44,559 nucleotides of DNA from Escherichia phage SM_A8: the sequence record PP920553.1; one strand, written 5' to 3'. This document shows, one piece after another, positions 30,435-36,484 of this stretch; the first letter of the stretch is position 1; every line of letters begins with the position of its first letter. Position numbers and translations under genes: made by a program. The notes below the pieces were generated by a model. That model did no database searches. It was not told the DNA's origin and saw only the letters and a program-made list of their open reading frames with translations.

Positions 30435-32726
30435 CTACTTGCGGTATCGATACATACAATCACCTTCGGCGGCAAGTGGGAAGCCTTTCGCCCAAATAGG
30501 CAGGTCGCACATCAGCGCGCAAAGCTCCTCTGTCGTGTAGTCGTCGGTGTCCGGCACTTCTGTGATCAATTCATCATGCACCGATAGAACGATTTCATAG
30601 CCCGCAGCTTCAACGCCAGGCATTGACCAGGCGAGAATATCACGGCACAACGCCTGTACTATGTTCTCCGTCAGTTTGCCGCCGTAGGTATACTGGAAGC
30701 CCCACTGGCGCGTCGTCTGATTCTCGCCCTGATATTTAATGCGTGTGCTGGTGCGCTTCTTGCCGGTGTCTTCGTCAATCTCGGTCGTGACAGACAGCGC
30801 GATGCCCGGGTAGCTCATGATGCGCCCCGACGGCAACTCAATTTTCAACCACCACCCCGCGGCGTTCGGGTCGTCGCGCTCCTCGTCAAAGGTTGGGTCG
30901 TGCTTCGCCTTCGTACGGACAATCTTGAGCGCTTTTCTACCGTCCGGGCGAACGTTCGCACCAGCCCAGTATGCTTTGCCCGGATTGCGGATTGCACACA
31001 ACACCGCGTCCTCAAGCTCGGCCCAAAATGCTACCGTCTTCGGGTGAGCCTCACGCCACATACGTTTGATCGCGTCACAAGTCAGCCATACGTTTTTCGG
31101 CAGTATGTATGTTGGACGCTCGTCTTTCTTGCCTGGCTTCGGCGGGCGTTTCGCTTCGTTAATACGAGCGTATTCATAACCGCGTTTCGCCGCCGCCCAA
31201 ATGTGATCGGGGAATGTGCCCTTCATCACGTCCGCCATAGTGTAAAGGTCGAGGCCCAGGTTTTTAGCGAACTGCAAGAACGCCGCGACTCCGCCACCAT
31301 AGCCCAGTCCCAATTCGCACGCCTTACCGATCTGGCGTAAGTCCTTGCGGTTGGCTTTAATGTAGTCCGGGTCCAGGCCGAACATCTTACCGGCAGTCTC
31401 ACAATAGATATCGCGACCGGCCATAAACACCATTAGCGCGGTTTTCTCGCCCGCGATCCAGGCAAGTCCACGCCCTTCCACGTTGGAGAAGTCCGCTACG
31501 ACAAACTTCTTACCCTTAGCCGGAATAATGCACCCGCGAACGGTCGAGGCCGTTAACTTCGATATGTCATACGCCCAGTGTGCAGTCCCGCGTAACAGGG
31601 AGTTGATGCCGTTGGTGAGCATGTGCGACCGCACCCAATAAGAAACGTCGCTCTCGCCATCACGGCGCTTAATCTTCCCTTCGTGGTCGTCGCTATACTC
31701 GCCGCGTGCCAGGTTTTGCGGCTGGAAGCCCTTACCGGCCCAGCGTAGCGTGCGCTTTGCCCCACCATACTGAAGACAACCACGGCGGCGACCATCGGCG
31801 GACAGGCCATTGACAAGCGGATTGTATTTAGTAGATGCCGTTGATGACGCACCGAGGCGCATTTCGATAAGCGCTTTGCCTTCGTCGGGGAAATCCGGGT
31901 CTTCAAGCAGGTCGTTAAGTGTGGATTTCTGCGCGTTGTGGATCGTGAACGCCGGGGCGATATCACGCAGGATTGGCAGGAAGTCATTGCCGGTCAGCTT
32001 ACCGCCAAATCGCTCCCAGGCTTCTTCCTTCAATTCTTCCTTATGCGCCTGCACCGCTTTGATCGCGGCGTTCGCCAGGTCAACGTCCACATAGAAGCCG
32101 CGGTCGTTGATCAACTGGTCGATAAGCAGGATTTCATCTTCCTTCGGAGTATTACCCCAGTCCGGTATGCGCCAGTAGACTTCACGCATTGCGATAATAT
32201 CCAGCGCGGCATAGCGCAGAAATTTGGCCCACTCTTCTGGGTGAGTCTCGCGAGTGTAGCGGCGGATTTTGTAGGTCTTAGGGGTAGGCTTACAGAATCG
32301 TTTAATCAGCGCCTTGCCTGCCTTATCCTTCGCGTGCTCTGCGTCAACGCCCAGCACCTGGCACTGCATATCGAGGCTGCCGGGGAGAGCGTGGCGAAAG
32401 GCCATAATCATGGTGTCTTCGATCTGGCTTACCGGCAGGTCAATACCCCACTTCTCGCGAATGACCAGGCGGTCAAACAGGAGGCCGTTAGCCATCACTA
32501 TTTTTGCTTTCTTGCGGGATACCCTGCGGAGCGCCTTGCGCAGTTCACGCGGCATTGTTGGGGACTCGGTGCAATCCCATGTCTGCACGCGGCCCTCATC
32601 GATGGCGTAGGTGCAAATCATAATCTCGGTGGTTGGGTGCTCTGCGTAGGCATATGCGCCCACTTTCTTCAGATCCACCCCGCTAAATGTCTCGGTATCG
32701 AGAAAAAGTCGTTCGAAGTCTTTCAT
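30435..32726 (-). CDS. family A DNA polymerase (Pol I-like) with 3-5 exonuclease domain
   Basis: Exo I motif FLDTETFSG, O-helix-like RQIGKACELGLGYGGG, motif C SVHDE; 763 aa. Confidence 0.85.
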   Translation of the reverse strand: MKDFERLFLDTETFSGVDLKKVGAYAYAEHPTTEIMICTYAIDEGRVQTWDCTESPTMPRELRKALRRVSRKKAKIVMANGLLFDRLVIREKWGIDLPVSQIEDTMIMAFRHALPGSLDMQCQVLGVDAEHAKDKAGKALIKRFCKPTPKTYKIRRYTRETHPEEWAKFLRYAALDIIAMREVYWRIPDWGNTPKEDEILLIDQLINDRGFYVDVDLANAAIKAVQAHKEELKEEAWERFGGKLTGNDFLPILRDIAPAFTIHNAQKSTLNDLLEDPDFPDEGKALIEMRLGASSTASTKYNPLVNGLSADGRRRGCLQYGGAKRTLRWAGKGFQPQNLARGEYSDDHEGKIKRRDGESDVSYWVRSHMLTNGINSLLRGTAHWAYDISKLTASTVRGCIIPAKGKKFVVADFSNVEGRGLAWIAGEKTALMVFMAGRDIYCETAGKMFGLDPDYIKANRKDLRQIGKACELGLGYGGGVAAFLQFAKNLGLDLYTMADVMKGTFPDHIWAAAKRGYEYARINEAKRPPKPGKKDERPTYILPKNVWLTCDAIKRMWREAHPKTVAFWAELEDAVLCAIRNPGKAYWAGANVRPDGRKALKIVRTKAKHDPTFDEERDDPNAAGWWLKIELPSGRIMSYPGIALSVTTEIDEDTGKKRTSTRIKYQGENQTTRQWGFQYTYGGKLTENIVQALCRDILAWSMPGVEAAGYEIVLSVHDELITEVPDTDDYTTEELCALMCDLPIWAKGFPLAAEGDCMYRYRK

Positions 32727-32893
32727 TGCTTTATCCTCACTACGGCGTCAGCGCTGCCGATCATGGAGAAGATACCGTCGGAAAGGGTTATCTCCTCGCC
32801 GTTGTTACGAACCTCGGCAACGGTGAAATACTCGCCCAGCAGTTTAGACCATACCTGCATTCCGACTTTTACTTCGCTGGCTTTAATGCGCAT
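32723..32893 (-). CDS. small hypothetical protein coupled to DNA polymerase
   Basis: 56-aa ORF (MRIKASEVKVGMQVWSKLLGEY...) not in the ORF track; its stop overlaps the polymerase ATG (ATGA). Confidence 0.4.
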   Translation of the reverse strand: MRIKASEVKVGMQVWSKLLGEYFTVAEVRNNGEEITLSDGIFSMIGSADAVVRIKQ

Positions 32894-32951
32894 TTTTCAT
32901 TGTCCTATTAAAAAGCCCGCATTAAGCGGGCTTGAATAGTGGGCTTTGCCC

Positions 32952-33734
32952 TTAACGGCGGCGACGTTTACGTGGTGCTTCGTCTTCGTCGTCGTCCTCA
33001 TCTTCGTCATCGCGTGGCTTACGACGTTTGCGAGGTTTTTCATCTTCCTCATCGTCGTCGTCATCGCGGCGCTTGGATTTCTTGGACTTGCGCGGCTTGT
33101 CATCTTCATCATCGTCATCACGACGTTTTGACTTTTTGGACTTGCGCGGTGCTTCGTCTTCGTCGTCGTTGTCCAGGTCTTCATCGGAGCAAGAAGACCC
33201 GCCACCTCCGAAGGCTTCGCCGTCTTCACGGAATCGCAGACCCAGCAAGCCAGCACCGAGTCCCTTGCCGTTGGTATTGTTCCACGCCCAAATATCCAGG
33301 GACACATTGCAATAACAACCGGAGTAGATCTCCTGGCCTTCAATCTCGTCGCCGTCGATGGTCAGACCTTGTTCAGTCTGCTTCTCGCCGAGTGACGTTT
33401 GAATGATTGGTTGTTTGAACGATTTGGCGTTGATGTACAACATGCCTTCAAATTCTTCGGTTACTTCGTCACGCTCGTCACCGTCGCGAACTGCGCATTC
33501 CTTAGAATCCTGGGCGTAGTGGCGGTCCATCCACTTATCAGCATTCTTCTCGGATTTCAGCTTGTCGGTGAGCACTGCGCGCGCTGCCGCTTCCACTTTG
33601 TCCACCTGCGGATCTTCTTTATCAAGAAGAATCACTGCACGGTATGCCGGTTTTTGTCCATCCTGTTTAGGGGTATCACGTTCCCAAATTTTAAGGAAAC
33701 ATACGCGCACATTTTTCAGGTTGACTTTAGCCAT
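32952..33734 (-). CDS. hypothetical protein with repetitive charged C-terminal tail (possible ssDNA-binding protein)
   Basis: ATG 33734 with GAGGA RBS; N-terminus MAKVNLKNVRVCF; C-terminal alternating poly-D/E and PRKSKKSKRR blocks from tandem DNA repeats. Confidence 0.5.
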   Translation of the reverse strand: MAKVNLKNVRVCFLKIWERDTPKQDGQKPAYRAVILLDKEDPQVDKVEAAARAVLTDKLKSEKNADKWMDRHYAQDSKECAVRDGDERDEVTEEFEGMLYINAKSFKQPIIQTSLGEKQTEQGLTIDGDEIEGQEIYSGCYCNVSLDIWAWNNTNGKGLGAGLLGLRFREDGEAFGGGGSSCSDEDLDNDDEDEAPRKSKKSKRRDDDDEDDKPRKSKKSKRRDDDDDEEDEKPRKRRKPRDDEDEDDDEDEAPRKRRRR

Positions 33735-33798
33735 TTTCCAATTCCTCATTTTCACATATATCGGGGTTATTATGAGCCACCCCGTTCGGCTTGGTTGC

Positions 33799-33827
33799 TA
33801 ATCTACTTGGTTGCGCCTGATCGGTCA
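33799..33827 (-). promoter_or_regulatory. sigma70-like promoter for SSB-like gene
   Basis: minus-sense TTGACC-N17-TAGATT with GCAACCAA copies in the spacer and just after the -10. Confidence 0.45.
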
Positions 33828-34067
33828 AGCATTTTCATTAAAAAGATTTCTGGTCACGTAGTTGGTAGCGTTCTCGATCCAGCTTAACGGCGGGCGGTCG
33901 ATGTTCTTCTCCACCCAGTCGACGGCAGCGTCACTATATCCGTTGTCAAGCCAGCGGGTCGGATGGCGAATCATCCACGCCACCATTAACACGCCTTGCA
34001 CGCAATGCAGGATAAAGCCCAGCGCTCCGAGCAAAAACATCAATAAGATTGCGAATACTTTATTCAT
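33825..34067 (-). CDS. small membrane protein
   Basis: 80 aa with N-terminal hydrophobic segment AILLMFLLGALGFILHCVQGVLMVAWM. Confidence 0.45.
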   Translation of the reverse strand: MNKVFAILLMFLLGALGFILHCVQGVLMVAWMIRHPTRWLDNGYSDAAVDWVEKNIDRPPLSWIENATNYVTRNLFNENA

Positions 34068-35490
34068 TGCTTAAGTCCTCGTCAGTAGCTACAGACCACG
34101 CAGGGCGCGGGTCGTCAATTGGTGCTAATACCGGTTTAGCCGGTGCGCGCGTGATTTTATCACACAGCTTCGCCCACACTTTCGGCTTCTCGTCCTTCAG
34201 TACCTTCTCGGCATCCGTAGGACTGAGCAATGTTTCTTTGTACATCACATCGCGCTTGATCCGGGCCTTCGTGAAGATTTCTATCACTTCTCTCTCGTCC
34301 GCCCACTTCCGGATCCCTTCCTTACCGGCAACCATCTTGAGGCCCAGCGATTCGCCATCCCCCGCCATTACCGCTTTGAATACCGCGGACTCGATAGCTT
34401 TGATGTGCTGGCGCATTGCGTCCAGGCCTTCATAAGCCTTGCGCAGTTCTGCGGCGGTCATAGCGCCGGGGGCCGCTTCTTTCTTGCCACGCTTCGCACG
34501 TCGGGCCGCCTTCCGGGCTTCGCGGGCCATATTGCGGTCGTGATTGGCGCATTCTTCCTCGGTCGCCACGCTCACGTCGTCGCCCAGGTCTTCGTCGGTT
34601 GCCGTTGGAGGTGTCATCGTGTCGATTGCGGCCTTAGCGCGGGCACTACACTGATCCGCAAATCGACACCACTGGCACGCATCAACGCTGGGCCGGAAGT
34701 CTGCGCGGGTGAGTCCCTTCTTGCCTCGGGAATACGCCTCCAGTGCGGCAATAGCGCGCTTGGATGCAAACTTCGCGAATATCTCCAGCGCTTCTACCGA
34801 AATATCCCACTCCGACGCCCCGCCGCAATACGGCTGGAAGATAACCAGGCGAACGGTCGTAATGTCGTACATAGTTTGCAGCTTGCGTAGCAGGCCGAGC
34901 GCGTACAACATAAGCTGTTTGTTTTCTTTCGCCTCGACCTTATGCCGCCCGGTCTTCAGGTCGCCAACAATCAGCATGTACGTTCCATCGGTCTTTTTCA
35001 TGACCATGACCATATCGGCGGTACCGAACGTTTTAATCCTGTTGCCGTCGATCTCGTAGCCTGAGTGAAGGACGCGGGTCAGATCGGCGCGCATCTCAAG
35101 CTGGACAAACTCTGCCACTTCGAGGAGCGGTCGCCAGTGGTCGATGTACGCGTCGCACTGTTTCACCATATCGTCGTTGACAAGTACGCCGCCTTTCGGT
35201 GCTTTCGGGTGTGCCTTTACTGGCCCCTTTCCTTCGTTCTCGACGTAACACCCTTTATACGTCTTTGCGGTTATCAGCTTTTCACCGGCGATAATGCGGT
35301 TTAGCACGACTTCAGATACGGTGTGCATACTCGTACCGTTAATCGCGGCTTGCCCGGATTCGTTCGGGATACCTTGTTCTACCACCAGGGCGGCGGGGCA
35401 ACCCATCCATTTTTTAGCACCGGACGGGCCGAGTAATGAGTGTTCCGTGTTGCTACCGGATTGCGTTTTACGTTTTGGTTTAATCGCCAT
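34060..35490 (-). CDS. RecB/Cas4-like exonuclease (PD-(D/E)XK nuclease with Cys cluster)
   Basis: 476 aa; cysteine cluster CQWCRFADQC typical of Cas4/AddB-type nucleases; charged C-terminal region. Confidence 0.6.
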   Translation of the reverse strand: MAIKPKRKTQSGSNTEHSLLGPSGAKKWMGCPAALVVEQGIPNESGQAAINGTSMHTVSEVVLNRIIAGEKLITAKTYKGCYVENEGKGPVKAHPKAPKGGVLVNDDMVKQCDAYIDHWRPLLEVAEFVQLEMRADLTRVLHSGYEIDGNRIKTFGTADMVMVMKKTDGTYMLIVGDLKTGRHKVEAKENKQLMLYALGLLRKLQTMYDITTVRLVIFQPYCGGASEWDISVEALEIFAKFASKRAIAALEAYSRGKKGLTRADFRPSVDACQWCRFADQCSARAKAAIDTMTPPTATDEDLGDDVSVATEEECANHDRNMAREARKAARRAKRGKKEAAPGAMTAAELRKAYEGLDAMRQHIKAIESAVFKAVMAGDGESLGLKMVAGKEGIRKWADEREVIEIFTKARIKRDVMYKETLLSPTDAEKVLKDEKPKVWAKLCDKITRAPAKPVLAPIDDPRPAWSVATDEDLSNE

Positions 35491-35968: not shown

Positions 35969-36484
35969 TTAATCTTCCAGTTCGAAATAGGTTTCGACGA
36001 TTTCTTTTAGCTCTTTGTGGAAGTCTTCGACGTCGTCATCTTCCAGCTTGGCGATTGATTTGATCTCGAACGATTCCAGCAGGTCGTCGAATTCGTCGTT
36101 CGCGTCATCATCATCACCGCCTGCAATAATAGCGGCATACTGCTTGATTTCGTCGCGCATTTCGACCAGCGGATCGGCATCTTTCTTACCTTTGCCTTTC
36201 GCCGGTGCTTTCTTAGCCTTAGCCGGTTTTTCGTCTTCGGCATCGTCGTCGTCATCTTCTACGACTTCTTTTTTAGCCTTACCTTTCGCCGGTGCTTTTT
36301 TAGATTTAGCCGGTTTTTCGTCTTCAGCTTCATCGTCGTCATCTTCGACAACTTCTTTTTTGGCCTTAGACGGCTTCTTGTCTTCCTGCTTACCAACGGC
36401 AGCGCCAACGGTTTCATAATGCTTTGCAATGGTTTCCAGTGCTACTACGCCGCGAGTGATCAGGTTTACGATTTGCTCAAACAT
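35969..36484 (-). CDS. acidic/lysine-rich repeat protein (first gene of leftward early operon)
   Basis: ATG 36484 with GGAGAT RBS; two 29-aa repeats (KKEVVEDDDDEAEDEKPAKSKKAPAKGKA) from an 87-bp tandem DNA repeat; poly-D C-terminal region. Confidence 0.55.
   Translation of the reverse strand: MFEQIVNLITRGVVALETIAKHYETVGAAVGKQEDKKPSKAKKEVVEDDDDEAEDEKPAKSKKAPAKGKAKKEVVEDDDDDAEDEKPAKAKKAPAKGKGKKDADPLVEMRDEIKQYAAIIAGGDDDDANDEFDDLLESFEIKSIAKLEDDDVEDFHKELKEIVETYFELED

What the first reader, a model, noticed from the sequence alone, without database searches (positions are those of the whole stretch)
32952..33140. Charged repetitive C-terminal tail on the SSB-like protein
The C-terminal ~60 residues are alternating poly-D/E and basic PRKSKKSKRR blocks, encoded by short tandem DNA repeats (GACGACGA / TTTTTGGACTTGCGCGG-type on the plus strand, 32958-33140). 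The tail recalls acidic C-tails of phage SSBs but with interleaved basic blocks; repeats make this a likely length-variable region.
Basis: seen in the sequence. Interest (0 to 1): 0.4.

Follow-up and report, generated by a model that had tools for sequence, protein, structure and literature searches.

The report
Charge-striped disordered tail on phage SSB

Summary
The minus-strand gene 32952..33734 encodes a 260-aa Enc34/T7-gp2.5-type SSB (Pfam PF10991, E 1.4e-31). Its last 77 residues (window 32955..33185, 45 nt beyond the stated range) form eight fully segregated charge blocks: four D/E runs and four xPRK...RR runs. No shuffle out of 20,000 gave so few charge runs. AlphaFold2 is confident on the OB fold and not on the tail.

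The DNA is not a short perfect repeat. It is a diverged 54-bp (18-aa) unit whose copies keep the protein sequence through synonymous changes.

Dhillonvirus orthologues carry 2, 3 or 4 units through at least six different whole-unit indels, and always keep the alternation and the ...DEAPRKRRRR end.

In an unbiased family sample, 131 of 148 members have a plain ~26-aa acidic tail, nearly all with a hydrophobic tip. Only about 7% have two or more basic blocks. Net tail charge stays near -8 whatever the length.

Best reading: a net-acidic block-polyampholyte version of the SSB regulatory and interaction tail, whose near-neutral units act as a multivalent linker. The function is inferred, not shown.

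Verdict: new variant of a known kind, moderate interest.

The parts
32952..33734 (-). SSB gene, 260 aa plus stop; start ATG at 33734 (MAKVNLKN...)
   Evidence: Homologues align from residues 1-3. The ORF listing extends the ORF to a GTG at 33755, but AGGA lies 7 nt before the ATG and orthologues are annotated from MAKV.
33207..33734 (-). OB-fold ssDNA-binding domain, residues 1-176 (Enc34 / T7 gp2.5 type)
   Evidence: Pfam PF10991, E 1.4e-31. AF2 pLDDT is 90-98 up to about residue 172. Foldseek hits 5odl, 5odj and 4klk at E about 1e-11 and 1je5 at 3.5e-6. W149, N153 and K39 align with the Enc34 DNA-contact residues W150, N154 and K46.
33186..33206 (-). Gly/Ser hinge, residues 177-183 (GGGSSCS)
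   Evidence: pLDDT falls below 50 from residue 177. It follows the conserved GEAFGG motif.
32955..33185 (-). Block-polyampholyte tail, residues 184-260: 8 charge blocks, net charge -8
   Evidence: composition and shuffles. (pLDDT about 48-57, no secondary structure beyond a 4-residue turn at 184-187).
33153..33185 (-). Acidic block A1, residues 184-194 (DEDLDNDDEDE); corresponds to the family-wide proximal acidic motif (D-D-F/L-D/E-D-L)
   Evidence: D191 is at least 90% conserved in alignment A1. Simple-tailed members start their tails with ..DDFEDL...
33120..33152 (-). Basic block B1, residues 195-205 (APRKSKKSKRR)
33099..33119 (-). Acidic block A2, residues 206-212 (DDDDEDD)
33066..33098 (-). 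Basic block B2, residues 213-223 (KPRKSKKSKRR)
   Evidence: Compared with B1, 10 of 11 residues are identical, with 6 synonymous codon differences.
33039..33065 (-). Acidic block A3, residues 224-232 (DDDDDEEDE)
33012..33038 (-). Basic block B3, residues 233-241 (KPRKRRKPR)
32979..33011 (-). Acidic block A4, residues 242-252 (DDEDEDDDEDE)
32955..32978 (-). Terminal basic block B4, residues 253-260 (APRKRRRR-COOH); kept in every Dhillonvirus length variant seen
33046..33153 (.). Two adjacent 54-nt (18-codon) DNA copies, 74% identical
32910..32933 (-). Terminator-like hairpin (AAGCCCGC-UUAAU-GCGGGCUU followed by a U run), 19 nt after the stop codon
   Evidence: RNA fold -24.6 kcal/mol, z -3.3. 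A 'terminator' feature is annotated at this place in related records.
33800..33828 (-). Promoter-like site upstream of the gene (TTGACC-17-TAGATT); weak evidence
   Evidence: Consensus scan only, with 1 site found against 1.4 expected. Escape mutants of SECphi4 carry a mutation in the intergenic region upstream of the SSB gene.

Best explanation
The region encodes the intrinsically disordered C-terminal tail of the phage's replicative SSB, an Enc34/T7-gp2.5-type OB-fold protein. It sits where the short acidic regulatory tail of this family sits, but it has been expanded by tandem duplication of an 18-20-residue unit made of an acidic run followed by an xPRK-type basic run.

Shown:
- The protein is a family member with its DNA-contact residues conserved.
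- The tail is predicted to be unstructured.
- Charge segregation is extreme and non-random.
- The tail is under purifying selection in the SSB reading frame.
- Unit number varies (2-4) among otherwise near-identical phages, while the alternation, the first acidic block and the terminal DEAPRKRRRR are kept.
- Across the family, every added basic residue is matched by an added acidic one, so the net charge stays near -8, the same as the plain ancestral tail.

Inferred mechanism:
- The excess negative charge, led by the conserved proximal acidic block, plays the classical role. It mimics ssDNA, occupies the basic OB cleft in cis or in trans, gates DNA binding, favours ssDNA over dsDNA, and docks replisome partners.
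- The near-neutral acid/base units act as an extensible, multivalent electrostatic linker.
- Once ssDNA displaces the tail, the basic blocks can contact the DNA backbone or the acidic blocks of neighbouring tails. This would promote cooperative, possibly condensate-like, SSB coats and strand annealing.
- In the Dhillonvirus clade the usual acidic-hydrophobic tip is replaced by a basic end, so partner recruitment probably differs from the T7 and E. coli model.
For: Family and fold. DNA-contact residues: W149, N153 and K39 align with Enc34 W150, N154 and K46.

Disorder: pLDDT is about 48-57 over residues 177-260, against more than 90 in the OB fold.

Non-random patterning: 0 of 20,000 shuffles.

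Selection:
- B1 and B2 share 10 of 11 residues but differ at 6 synonymous codons.
- Among 260-aa orthologues the tail shows 59 synonymous against 17 non-synonymous codon differences, with 65 of 85 base changes at codon position 3. The OB fold shows 142 against 27.

Unit variation with conserved ends.

Family context:
- In an OB-only, word-index-free search, 131 of 148 representatives have plain acidic tails (median 26 aa, net -8.1; 128 of 131 with a hydrophobic residue in the last three). Ten have two or more basic blocks.
- Over 264 tails, acidic count = 1.12 x basic count + 7.5, r = 0.96.
- Many distant multi-unit tails still end in a classical tip (DDDVA, DDDDVV, DDEIPF), so in those proteins the units lie between the OB fold and the tip, like a linker.

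Precedent for the acidic-tail role:
- Enc34 ORF6 lacking 21 C-terminal residues gains dsDNA binding, and its tail lies in the beta-sheet groove of a neighbouring molecule in the crystal (PMC5686142).
- The T7 gp2.5 tail competes with ssDNA for the same surface (Marintcheva 2008, as cited there).
Against: - No experiment addresses this tail. Both papers that use the SECphi4 SSB ignore or omit it.
- Most family members, including Enc34 with the same replication module, work with a plain short tail, and lab phages with 3 units (SECphi4) or 4 units (SECphi18) are both viable. Unit number is therefore not critical, and the units could contribute little.
- Low pLDDT is only indirect evidence of disorder.
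- Nothing computed here distinguishes cis autoinhibition, trans cooperativity, DNA contact by the basic blocks, and partner docking.
- The absence of a hydrophobic tip means the best-studied recruitment mechanism cannot simply be transferred.
Confidence: 0.55

Rival explanations
1. The repeats are an essentially neutral low-complexity expansion. Duplication and deletion of a charged unit is tolerated in a disordered tail as long as net charge is roughly kept, and the stripes have no function of their own.
For: - Unit number varies from 2 to 4 among viable, near-identical phages.
- 89% of family representatives lack basic blocks.
- A rough neighbour-joining tree needs about 12 gains or losses of the trait, as expected for an easily made and easily lost feature.
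Against: - Synonymous changes far outnumber non-synonymous ones in the tail, nearly as strongly as in the OB fold.
- Repeat copies keep their protein sequence through synonymous divergence.
- Every length variant keeps strict alternation, the first acidic block and the terminal DEAPRKRRRR.
- The tight acidic-versus-basic balance across 264 tails (r = 0.96) shows constraint on at least charge balance and patterning.
Confidence: 0.2
2. The basic blocks are the functional part. They would be extra nucleic-acid-binding arms, comparable to the K/R/S-rich 'LAST' peptide of T4 gp32 or the lysine repeats of actinobacterial topoisomerase I (both comparisons from memory). These arms would raise DNA affinity, processivity or strand annealing, with the acidic blocks merely keeping them soluble and masked.
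For: - PHROG 112 members are annotated as ssDNA-binding and annealing proteins.
- Basic blocks are conserved in sequence (PRKSKKSKRR twice, PRKRR twice).
- The tail ends in a free basic block in the whole Dhillonvirus-like clade.
Against: - The net charge of the tail is always negative, so as a whole it should repel DNA.
- In the only tested family member, removing the tail increased dsDNA binding rather than decreasing DNA binding (PMC5686142).
- No DNA-binding data exist for this tail.
Confidence: 0.15
3. The length variation reflects an arms race. SSBs of these phages are sensed by host defences (Retron-Eco8, ShosTA), and changing the tail would help evade or decoy such sensors.
For: - SECphi4 and SECphi18 SSBs trigger Retron-Eco8, and SSB mutations allow escape from Retron-Eco8 and ShosTA.
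- Recurrent, independent unit indels occur among close relatives.
Against: - The escape mutations read here lie in the OB fold (T56P; N152H, F106V, T21P, F95L) or upstream of the gene. None is in the tail.
- Point substitutions in the tail are under purifying, not diversifying, selection.
Confidence: 0.05
4. The repeat region encodes something else: an overlapping gene, or an alternative-frame product reached by frameshifting. The +1 frame stays open through the whole tail to 32897.
For: - Long ORFs exist in several frames across the tail.
- Two GenBank records (MZ234008, MZ234014) and two database proteins (P0005, P0008) have their reading frame shifted into that frame.
Against: - Variation among orthologues is concentrated at codon position 3 of the SSB frame.
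- The shifts occur at different positions in different records, and the canonical frame downstream is fully intact. This points to sequencing errors or very recent mutations.
- P0005 and P0008 are single-member clusters, whereas the canonical form has 537 members.
- Open alternative frames are expected from GAY/GAR/AAR/CGN codon runs.
Confidence: 0.03

Closest known systems
Enterobacter phage Enc34 ORF6 (DUF2815 / PF10991 SSB; PDB 5odj, 5odk, 5odl)
   Same: Same Pfam family and fold, and conserved ssDNA-contact residues. An unstructured C-terminal tail follows the same GE(A/P)FG motif.
   Different: The Enc34 tail is about 29 residues and purely acidic (16 D/E), with no basic blocks or repeats (PMC5686142). 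The tail here is 77 residues with four basic blocks and a basic C-terminus.
T7 gp2.5 acidic C-terminal tail
   Same: Same OB-fold variant (1je5, Foldseek E 3.5e-6). It has a net-acidic disordered tail that, in T7, competes with ssDNA for the cleft and binds the polymerase and helicase (as cited in PMC5686142 and PMC13402713).
   Different: The gp2.5 tail is 26 residues, uniformly acidic, and ends in an essential aromatic residue (...DEDGDF; sequence). This tail alternates charge, is three times longer, and ends in RRRR with no aromatic or hydrophobic tip.
E. coli SSB C-terminal domain (intrinsically disordered linker plus acidic tip)
   Same: Two-part logic of a length-variable disordered linker followed by an interaction tip. 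Distant DUF2815 members with many acid/base units still end in DDDVA-, DDDDVV- or DDEIPF-type tips. From memory, the E. coli linker modulates cooperativity and phase separation (Kozlov et al.; Harami et al. 2020).
   Different: The OB fold belongs to a different family and the protein is a tetramer. The E. coli linker is Gly/Gln/Pro-rich and nearly uncharged, not a block polyampholyte. The Dhillonvirus tail lacks the tip altogether.
T4 gp32 (basic N-terminal 'LAST' peptide plus acidic C-terminal domain); comparison from memory, not tested here
   Same: It combines a short K/R/S/T-rich basic peptide that mediates cooperative binding with an acidic domain that gates DNA binding and recruits partners. 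This is the same two electrostatic functions.
   Different: In gp32 the two elements sit at opposite ends of the protein and occur once each. Here they are interleaved four times in one tail. There is no sequence or fold relationship.
Eukaryotic nucleolar proteins with alternating D/E tracts and K-rich blocks (nucleolin, NPM1, Nopp140); comparison from memory
   Same: Disordered regions with long, segregated acidic and basic blocks in nucleic-acid-binding proteins. There, blockiness drives multivalent electrostatic assembly and condensation.
   Different: No homology, and a eukaryotic context. The analogy is purely physicochemical and untested for this protein.

Membership tests
Enc34-type SSB (Pfam PF10991, formerly DUF2815) | Profile match above the curated threshold | tested here: met
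   109.9 bits against a cut-off of 26, E 1.4e-31, residues 3-193, profile positions 2-173 of 176.
Enc34-type SSB (Pfam PF10991, formerly DUF2815) | T7-type OB fold with a long capping helix after beta-2 | tested here: met
   AF2 model with pLDDT above 90 over residues 1-172 and helices at 43-59 and 62-72. Foldseek top hits are 4klk, 5odl, 5odj, 4jg2 and then 1je5.
Enc34-type SSB (Pfam PF10991, formerly DUF2815) | Conserved ssDNA-contact residues (aromatic stack equivalent to Enc34 W150, polar N154, basic K46) | tested here: met
   W149, N153 and K39 align with them (with residue roles from PMC5686142). Enc34 Y156 is not conserved: N155 aligns with it, and W151 lies nearby.
Enc34-type SSB (Pfam PF10991, formerly DUF2815) | Preferential ssDNA binding | not testable with these tools
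   Only indirect evidence. The SECphi4 orthologue activates Retron-Eco8 when expressed, and a later paper cites it as binding the retron msdDNA.
Canonical prokaryotic/phage SSB C-terminal tail (acidic, with a hydrophobic or aromatic tip) | Net-acidic disordered C-terminal segment | tested here: met
   Net charge -8, 36 D/E against 28 K/R. Low pLDDT.
Canonical prokaryotic/phage SSB C-terminal tail (acidic, with a hydrophobic or aromatic tip) | Acidic end with a hydrophobic or aromatic residue in the last residues (T7 ...DGDF; E. coli ...DDDIPF) | tested here: not met
   The tail ends in ...DEAPRKRRRR. In the unbiased family sample, 128 of 131 plain tails have a hydrophobic residue in the last three.
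Slippage-prone simple-sequence (contingency-type) repeat | Perfect or near-perfect short tandem DNA units | tested here: not met
   The longest array has a 54-bp period with 73-74% identity. Short 3-9-bp arrays score only 31-42. Repeat copies differ at synonymous sites.
Slippage-prone simple-sequence (contingency-type) repeat | Copy-number variation between close relatives | tested here: met
   2-4 units among Dhillonviruses, always in frame in well-supported sequences.

The most novel reading that the evidence does not exclude
In one clade of enterobacterial siphophages, the near-universal SSB design of an acidic tail ending in a hydrophobic tip that recruits partners has been replaced. The replacement is a block-polyampholyte tail with a basic end, whose unit number tunes self-association.

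On this reading the stripes would drive electrostatic self-coacervation of SSB-ssDNA into replication foci. They might do so together with the second charge-striped protein encoded 3 kb away (35969..36484). Replisome partners would then be recruited by a mode not described for any SSB.
Probability: 0.15. Interest if true: 0.65.

Novelty: new variant of a known kind. Interest (0 to 1): 0.4.

Why it matters
SSB tails are the hub through which replication, recombination and repair proteins are recruited. The textbook rule is an acidic tail with a hydrophobic tip. This gene is a natural, well-sampled exception in easily handled E. coli phages, including the BASEL and SECphi collections. It comes with a ready-made allelic series of 2, 3 and 4 units on near-identical OB folds. 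That series makes it practical to ask how charge patterning in a disordered tail, as opposed to charge content, affects DNA-binding selectivity, cooperativity, annealing and possibly condensate formation. The same protein is also a known trigger of bacterial defence systems, so knowing what its tail does is relevant to phage-host work. Without experiments it remains a descriptive variant of a known protein class.

Tried and rejected
1. The word-index homologue search with the full-length protein suggested that striped tails are the family norm. That search collects candidates by shared 5-residue words, and the low-complexity tail biases it. I repeated the search with the OB fold alone in the index-free library. 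Striped tails turned out to be a minority of about 7%.

2. A regex-based definition of the tail start matched inside the OB fold and inflated tail lengths and block counts. I replaced it with phmmer alignment ends.

I used those loci, but the Dhillonvirus sample is small.

4. Literature searches for any description of alternating-charge SSB tails found nothing specific. One search was rejected for syntax. The Retron-Eco11 preprint was irrelevant.

5. Defence-escape mutations were checked as a possible explanation for tail variability. None maps to the tail.

6. The frameshifted database entries were examined as a possible alternative product and judged to be errors or recent mutations.

7. The promoter consensus scan gave no more sites than chance, so the promoter assignment is weak.

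8. The neighbour-joining/Fitch estimate of about 12 gains or losses is rough. It rests on BLOSUM distances, a mixed biased and unbiased sample, and no support values. It should be read only as 'more than one origin or loss'.
Full report
**What is there**

Read on the minus strand, window 32952..33734 is a 260-codon gene. It starts MAKVNLKN at the ATG at 33734, which has an AGGA 7 nt upstream. It ends in TAA at 32952-32954. A strong hairpin with a U run follows at 32910-32933 (RNA fold -24.6 kcal/mol, z -3.3).

The gene lies in a leftward replication operon. Upstream is a DUF2800/PD-(D/E)XK nuclease (34060..35490). Downstream are a 56-aa ORF and a family-A DNA polymerase (30435..32726).

The window is a Dhillonvirus, an HK578-like E. 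coli siphophage. The gene region is 94-98% identical to Teewinot, Oekolampad, SECphi18 and many others, and 189 phage records match.

**The protein is an SSB**

- Residues 3-193 match Pfam PF10991, the Enc34 ssDNA-binding protein family (formerly DUF2815), at E 1.4e-31.
- It matches PHROG 112, Gp2.5-like SSB and annealing protein, at 1.9e-55.
- PDB sequence hits are the two structural-genomics DUF2815 proteins 4klk and 4jg2, and Enc34 ORF6 5odj.
- An AlphaFold2 model built from 32 homologues has pLDDT 90-98 over residues 1-172. By Foldseek it matches 4klk, 5odl and 5odj at about 1e-11, and T7 gp2.5 (1je5) at 3.5e-6.
- The residues that contact ssDNA in the Enc34 complex are W150 (stacking), N154 (backbone kink) and K46 (PMC5686142). 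They align with W149, N153 and K39 here.
- The near-identical proteins of SECphi4 and SECphi18 have been used experimentally as the phage SSB. Expression of the SECphi4 protein triggers Retron-Eco8 toxicity (bioRxiv 10.1101/2022.08.27.505566).

**The tail**

After the conserved GEAFGG motif and a GGGSSCS hinge, residues 184-260 (window 32955..33185) read DEDLDNDDEDE / APRKSKKSKRR / DDDDEDD / KPRKSKKSKRR / DDDDDEEDE / KPRKRRKPR / DDEDEDDDEDE / APRKRRRR.

- Composition is 36 acidic and 28 basic residues, net charge -8, with 83% of residues charged.
- Segregation of charge is complete. There are 8 sign runs, against 32 expected for the same composition, and 0 of 20,000 shuffles reached 8. Kappa is 0.53 against 0.10 +/- 0.04.
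- Each basic block begins with (A/K)-P-R-K.
- AF2 gives pLDDT of about 48-57 and no secondary structure over residues 177-260, which is consistent with disorder.
- The finding's coordinates (32952-33140) miss the first acidic block and most of the first basic block.

**The DNA**

The array is not a short perfect repeat.

- TRF finds a 54-bp period, 2.3 copies, 73% matches (33044-33169).
- The repeat finder finds two adjacent 54-nt copies at 74% identity, and a 45-nt pair at 80% identity joining the first and last units.
- Blocks B1 and B2 are identical at 10 of 11 residues, yet differ at 6 synonymous codons. The duplication is therefore old and the protein sequence has been held.
- Among four 260-aa orthologues, the tail shows 59 synonymous against 17 non-synonymous codon differences, with 65 of 85 base changes at codon position 3. 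The OB fold shows 142 against 27.

The tail is therefore under purifying selection in the SSB reading frame. This also argues against the other long ORFs that the codon composition opens across this stretch.

**Length variation**

IMG/VR and GenBank Dhillonviruses with OB folds 88-99% identical carry different unit numbers:

| Units | Protein length (aa) |
|---|---|
| 4 | 256-261 |
| 3 | 240-247 |
| 2 | 218-224 |

The variants are different events:
- B1/B2 fused (HK578, L008, L014).
- B3/B4 fused (SECphi4).
- B2 joined directly to the end of B3 (L007).
- Only B1 and B4 kept (L009, P0003).
- Only B3 and B4 kept (P0004).
- B1 duplicated exactly, with B3 lost (the canonical frame of L013 and L016).

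That makes at least six independent whole-unit changes, plus 3-12-bp indels within D/E runs.

In an evenly spaced sample of the GenBank hits, 17 of 48 full-length matches have exactly the query length. Another 22 differ by 1-12 bp, and 9 lack 45-61 bp.

Every variant keeps strict alternation, the first acidic block and the terminal ...DEAPRKRRRR. SECphi4 (3 units) and SECphi18 (4 units) are both healthy laboratory phages.

**Family context**

My first homologue search made striped tails look universal, with 0-12 basic blocks. That tool selects candidates by shared 5-mers, which the tail itself supplies. I therefore repeated the search with the OB fold alone in the index-free library of cluster representatives. 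It found 2,179 hits at E <= 1e-3, of which the best 150 were listed.

With tails defined from phmmer alignment ends:
- 131 of 148 representatives have a plain acidic tail. The median length is 26 aa and the mean net charge is -8.1. In 128 of these 131 there is a hydrophobic residue among the last three.
- 7 have one basic block.
- 10 (7%) have two or more basic blocks.

The nearest relatives of the window protein all have striped tails ending in a basic block. A separate, distant group has up to 12 units but still ends in DDDVA, DDDDVV or DDEIPF (for example Amorphus orientalis). In that group the units sit between the OB fold and the tip, like a linker. A rough neighbour-joining/Fitch analysis needs about 12 gains or losses, so there has been more than one origin or loss.

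Across 264 tails, acidic count = 1.12 x basic count + 7.5 (r = 0.96). Net charge stays near -8 whether the tail has 0 or 80 basic residues. Proline marks the acidic-to-basic junction (189 of 436) far more often than the reverse junction (32 of 380).

**How it most likely works**

*Established for relatives.* The T7 gp2.5 tail competes with ssDNA for the OB cleft and binds the polymerase and helicase. Enc34 ORF6 lacking 21 C-terminal residues keeps ssDNA binding but gains dsDNA binding, and in the crystal its tail lies in a neighbour's beta-sheet groove (PMC5686142).

*Inference.* Given the conserved net charge and the conserved proximal acidic motif, I infer that the excess negative charge of this tail does the same job. 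I infer that the added, nearly neutral acid/base units form an extensible multivalent linker. In this picture, basic blocks can touch DNA or the acidic blocks of neighbouring tails, and acidic blocks can touch basic surfaces on partners. The result would favour cooperative coating, annealing or condensate-like assemblies.

The loss of the hydrophobic tip in the Dhillonvirus clade implies that partner recruitment differs from the T7 and E. coli paradigm. None of this is tested. I put 0.55 on the overall explanation and much less on any one sub-mechanism.

**Rivals**

- *Neutral low-complexity expansion (0.2).* Supported by the tolerated copy-number variation and by the majority of family members lacking the feature. 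Opposed by purifying selection, the conserved ends and the conserved charge balance.
- *Basic blocks as the main functional DNA-binding or annealing arms (0.15).* Plausible by analogy to the gp32 LAST peptide (from memory). However, the tail is net acidic, and removing the Enc34 tail raised rather than lowered DNA binding.
- *Defence-driven variation (0.05).* The escape mutations of SECphi4 and SECphi18 from Retron-Eco8 (T56P, and a change upstream of the gene) and from ShosTA (N152H, F106V, T21P, F95L) that I read lie outside the tail. For T7 SSB, the C-tail is dispensable for Retron-Eco8 activation (PMC13402713).
- *Alternative-frame product (0.03).* Two GenBank records and two singleton database proteins are shifted into the open +1 frame. 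The shifts are at different sites and the canonical frame downstream is intact. These are probably sequencing errors.

**Comparison with what is known, and novelty**

The protein is a clear member of the Enc34/gp2.5 SSB family, and GenBank already annotates it as such. The tail fails one hallmark of canonical SSB tails, the acidic-hydrophobic tip. It adds interleaved basic blocks in tandem units.

I found no description of this architecture in the searchable literature. The paper that modelled the SECphi4 SSB simply omitted the 'flexible C-terminal residues'.

I class it as a new variant of a known kind. Interest is moderate (0.4). It is a clean, naturally variable system for studying charge patterning in an SSB tail, but it has no demonstrated function, and most family members do without it.

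Noticed in passing
window 35969..36484 (-), repeat at 36180..36368: A second protein in the same leftward operon also has an alternating-charge tandem repeat. It is 171 aa starting MFEQIVNL, matches phrog_3127 (unknown function) and has no Pfam match. The repeat reads KKPSKAKK-EVVEDDDDEAEDE-KPAKSKKAPAKGKAKK-EVVEDDDDDAEDE-KPAKAKKAPAKGKGKK and is encoded by an 87-bp unit, 2.2 copies, 87% matches. It shows the same junction as the SSB tail (acidic run, then (D/E)KP, then basic run). In a scan of all ORFs of 60 aa or more for highly charged 20-aa windows, it and the SSB were the only proteins found. The scan's third hit is the 36007..36255 ORF, another reading frame of this same gene.
   Followed up: partly
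window 32897..33343 (-); loci L013 (MZ234008.1) and L016 (MZ234014.1); proteins P0005 and P0008: The +1 frame stays open through the whole tail and past the stop codon. Two GenBank Dhillonvirus records annotate SSBs that shift into it at different points (DDLGD|AMTKMK... and RRDDE|MTKTR...), with the canonical frame intact downstream. These are probably sequencing or assembly errors in the GA-rich repeat.
   Followed up: partly
window 32723..32893 (-): The 56-aa ORF immediately downstream of the SSB gene (phrog_10102, unknown function) carries a recurrent +C frameshift (E21fs) in SECphi18 and SECphi6 defence-escape mutants in the Stokar-Avihail supplement. It is listed next to the DNA-polymerase R171L mutant that the main text assigns to Borvo escape. 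I did not verify the system assignment line by line.
   Followed up: partly
window residues 21, 56, 95, 106 and 152 of the SSB (within 33207..33734): Published escape mutations of the orthologous SSB are T56P (Retron-Eco8) and N152H, F106V, T21P and F95L (ShosTA). All fall in the OB fold. N152 sits between W149 and N153, the residues that align with the Enc34 ssDNA-stacking and backbone-kink residues.
   Followed up: partly
search hits H56 (MG065648.1) and H60 (OQ221563.1): Records named 'Campylobacter phage A144' and 'Acinetobacter phage NJ01' carry this gene region at about 95% identity to E. coli Dhillonviruses. This suggests mislabelled hosts or contaminating coliphages.
   Followed up: no
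locus L012 (IMGVR_UViG_3300045988_003101), end of contig: The SSB reading frame at the contig end runs into ...AVSYTHLRAHET. From memory, this looks like the translation of a Nextera transposase adapter. If so, the contig end is untrimmed adapter and not a true variant.
   Followed up: no
proteins P0072-P0119, for example P0076, P0100 and P0108: Distant DUF2815 SSBs carry 6-12 nearly perfect protein-level repeats, for example DEAPKRGRSRSRDADD four times. One is named as from Amorphus orientalis. The repeats indicate recent unit amplification in other lineages, while the tails keep a classical DDDVA- or DDDDVV-type tip.
   Followed up: partly
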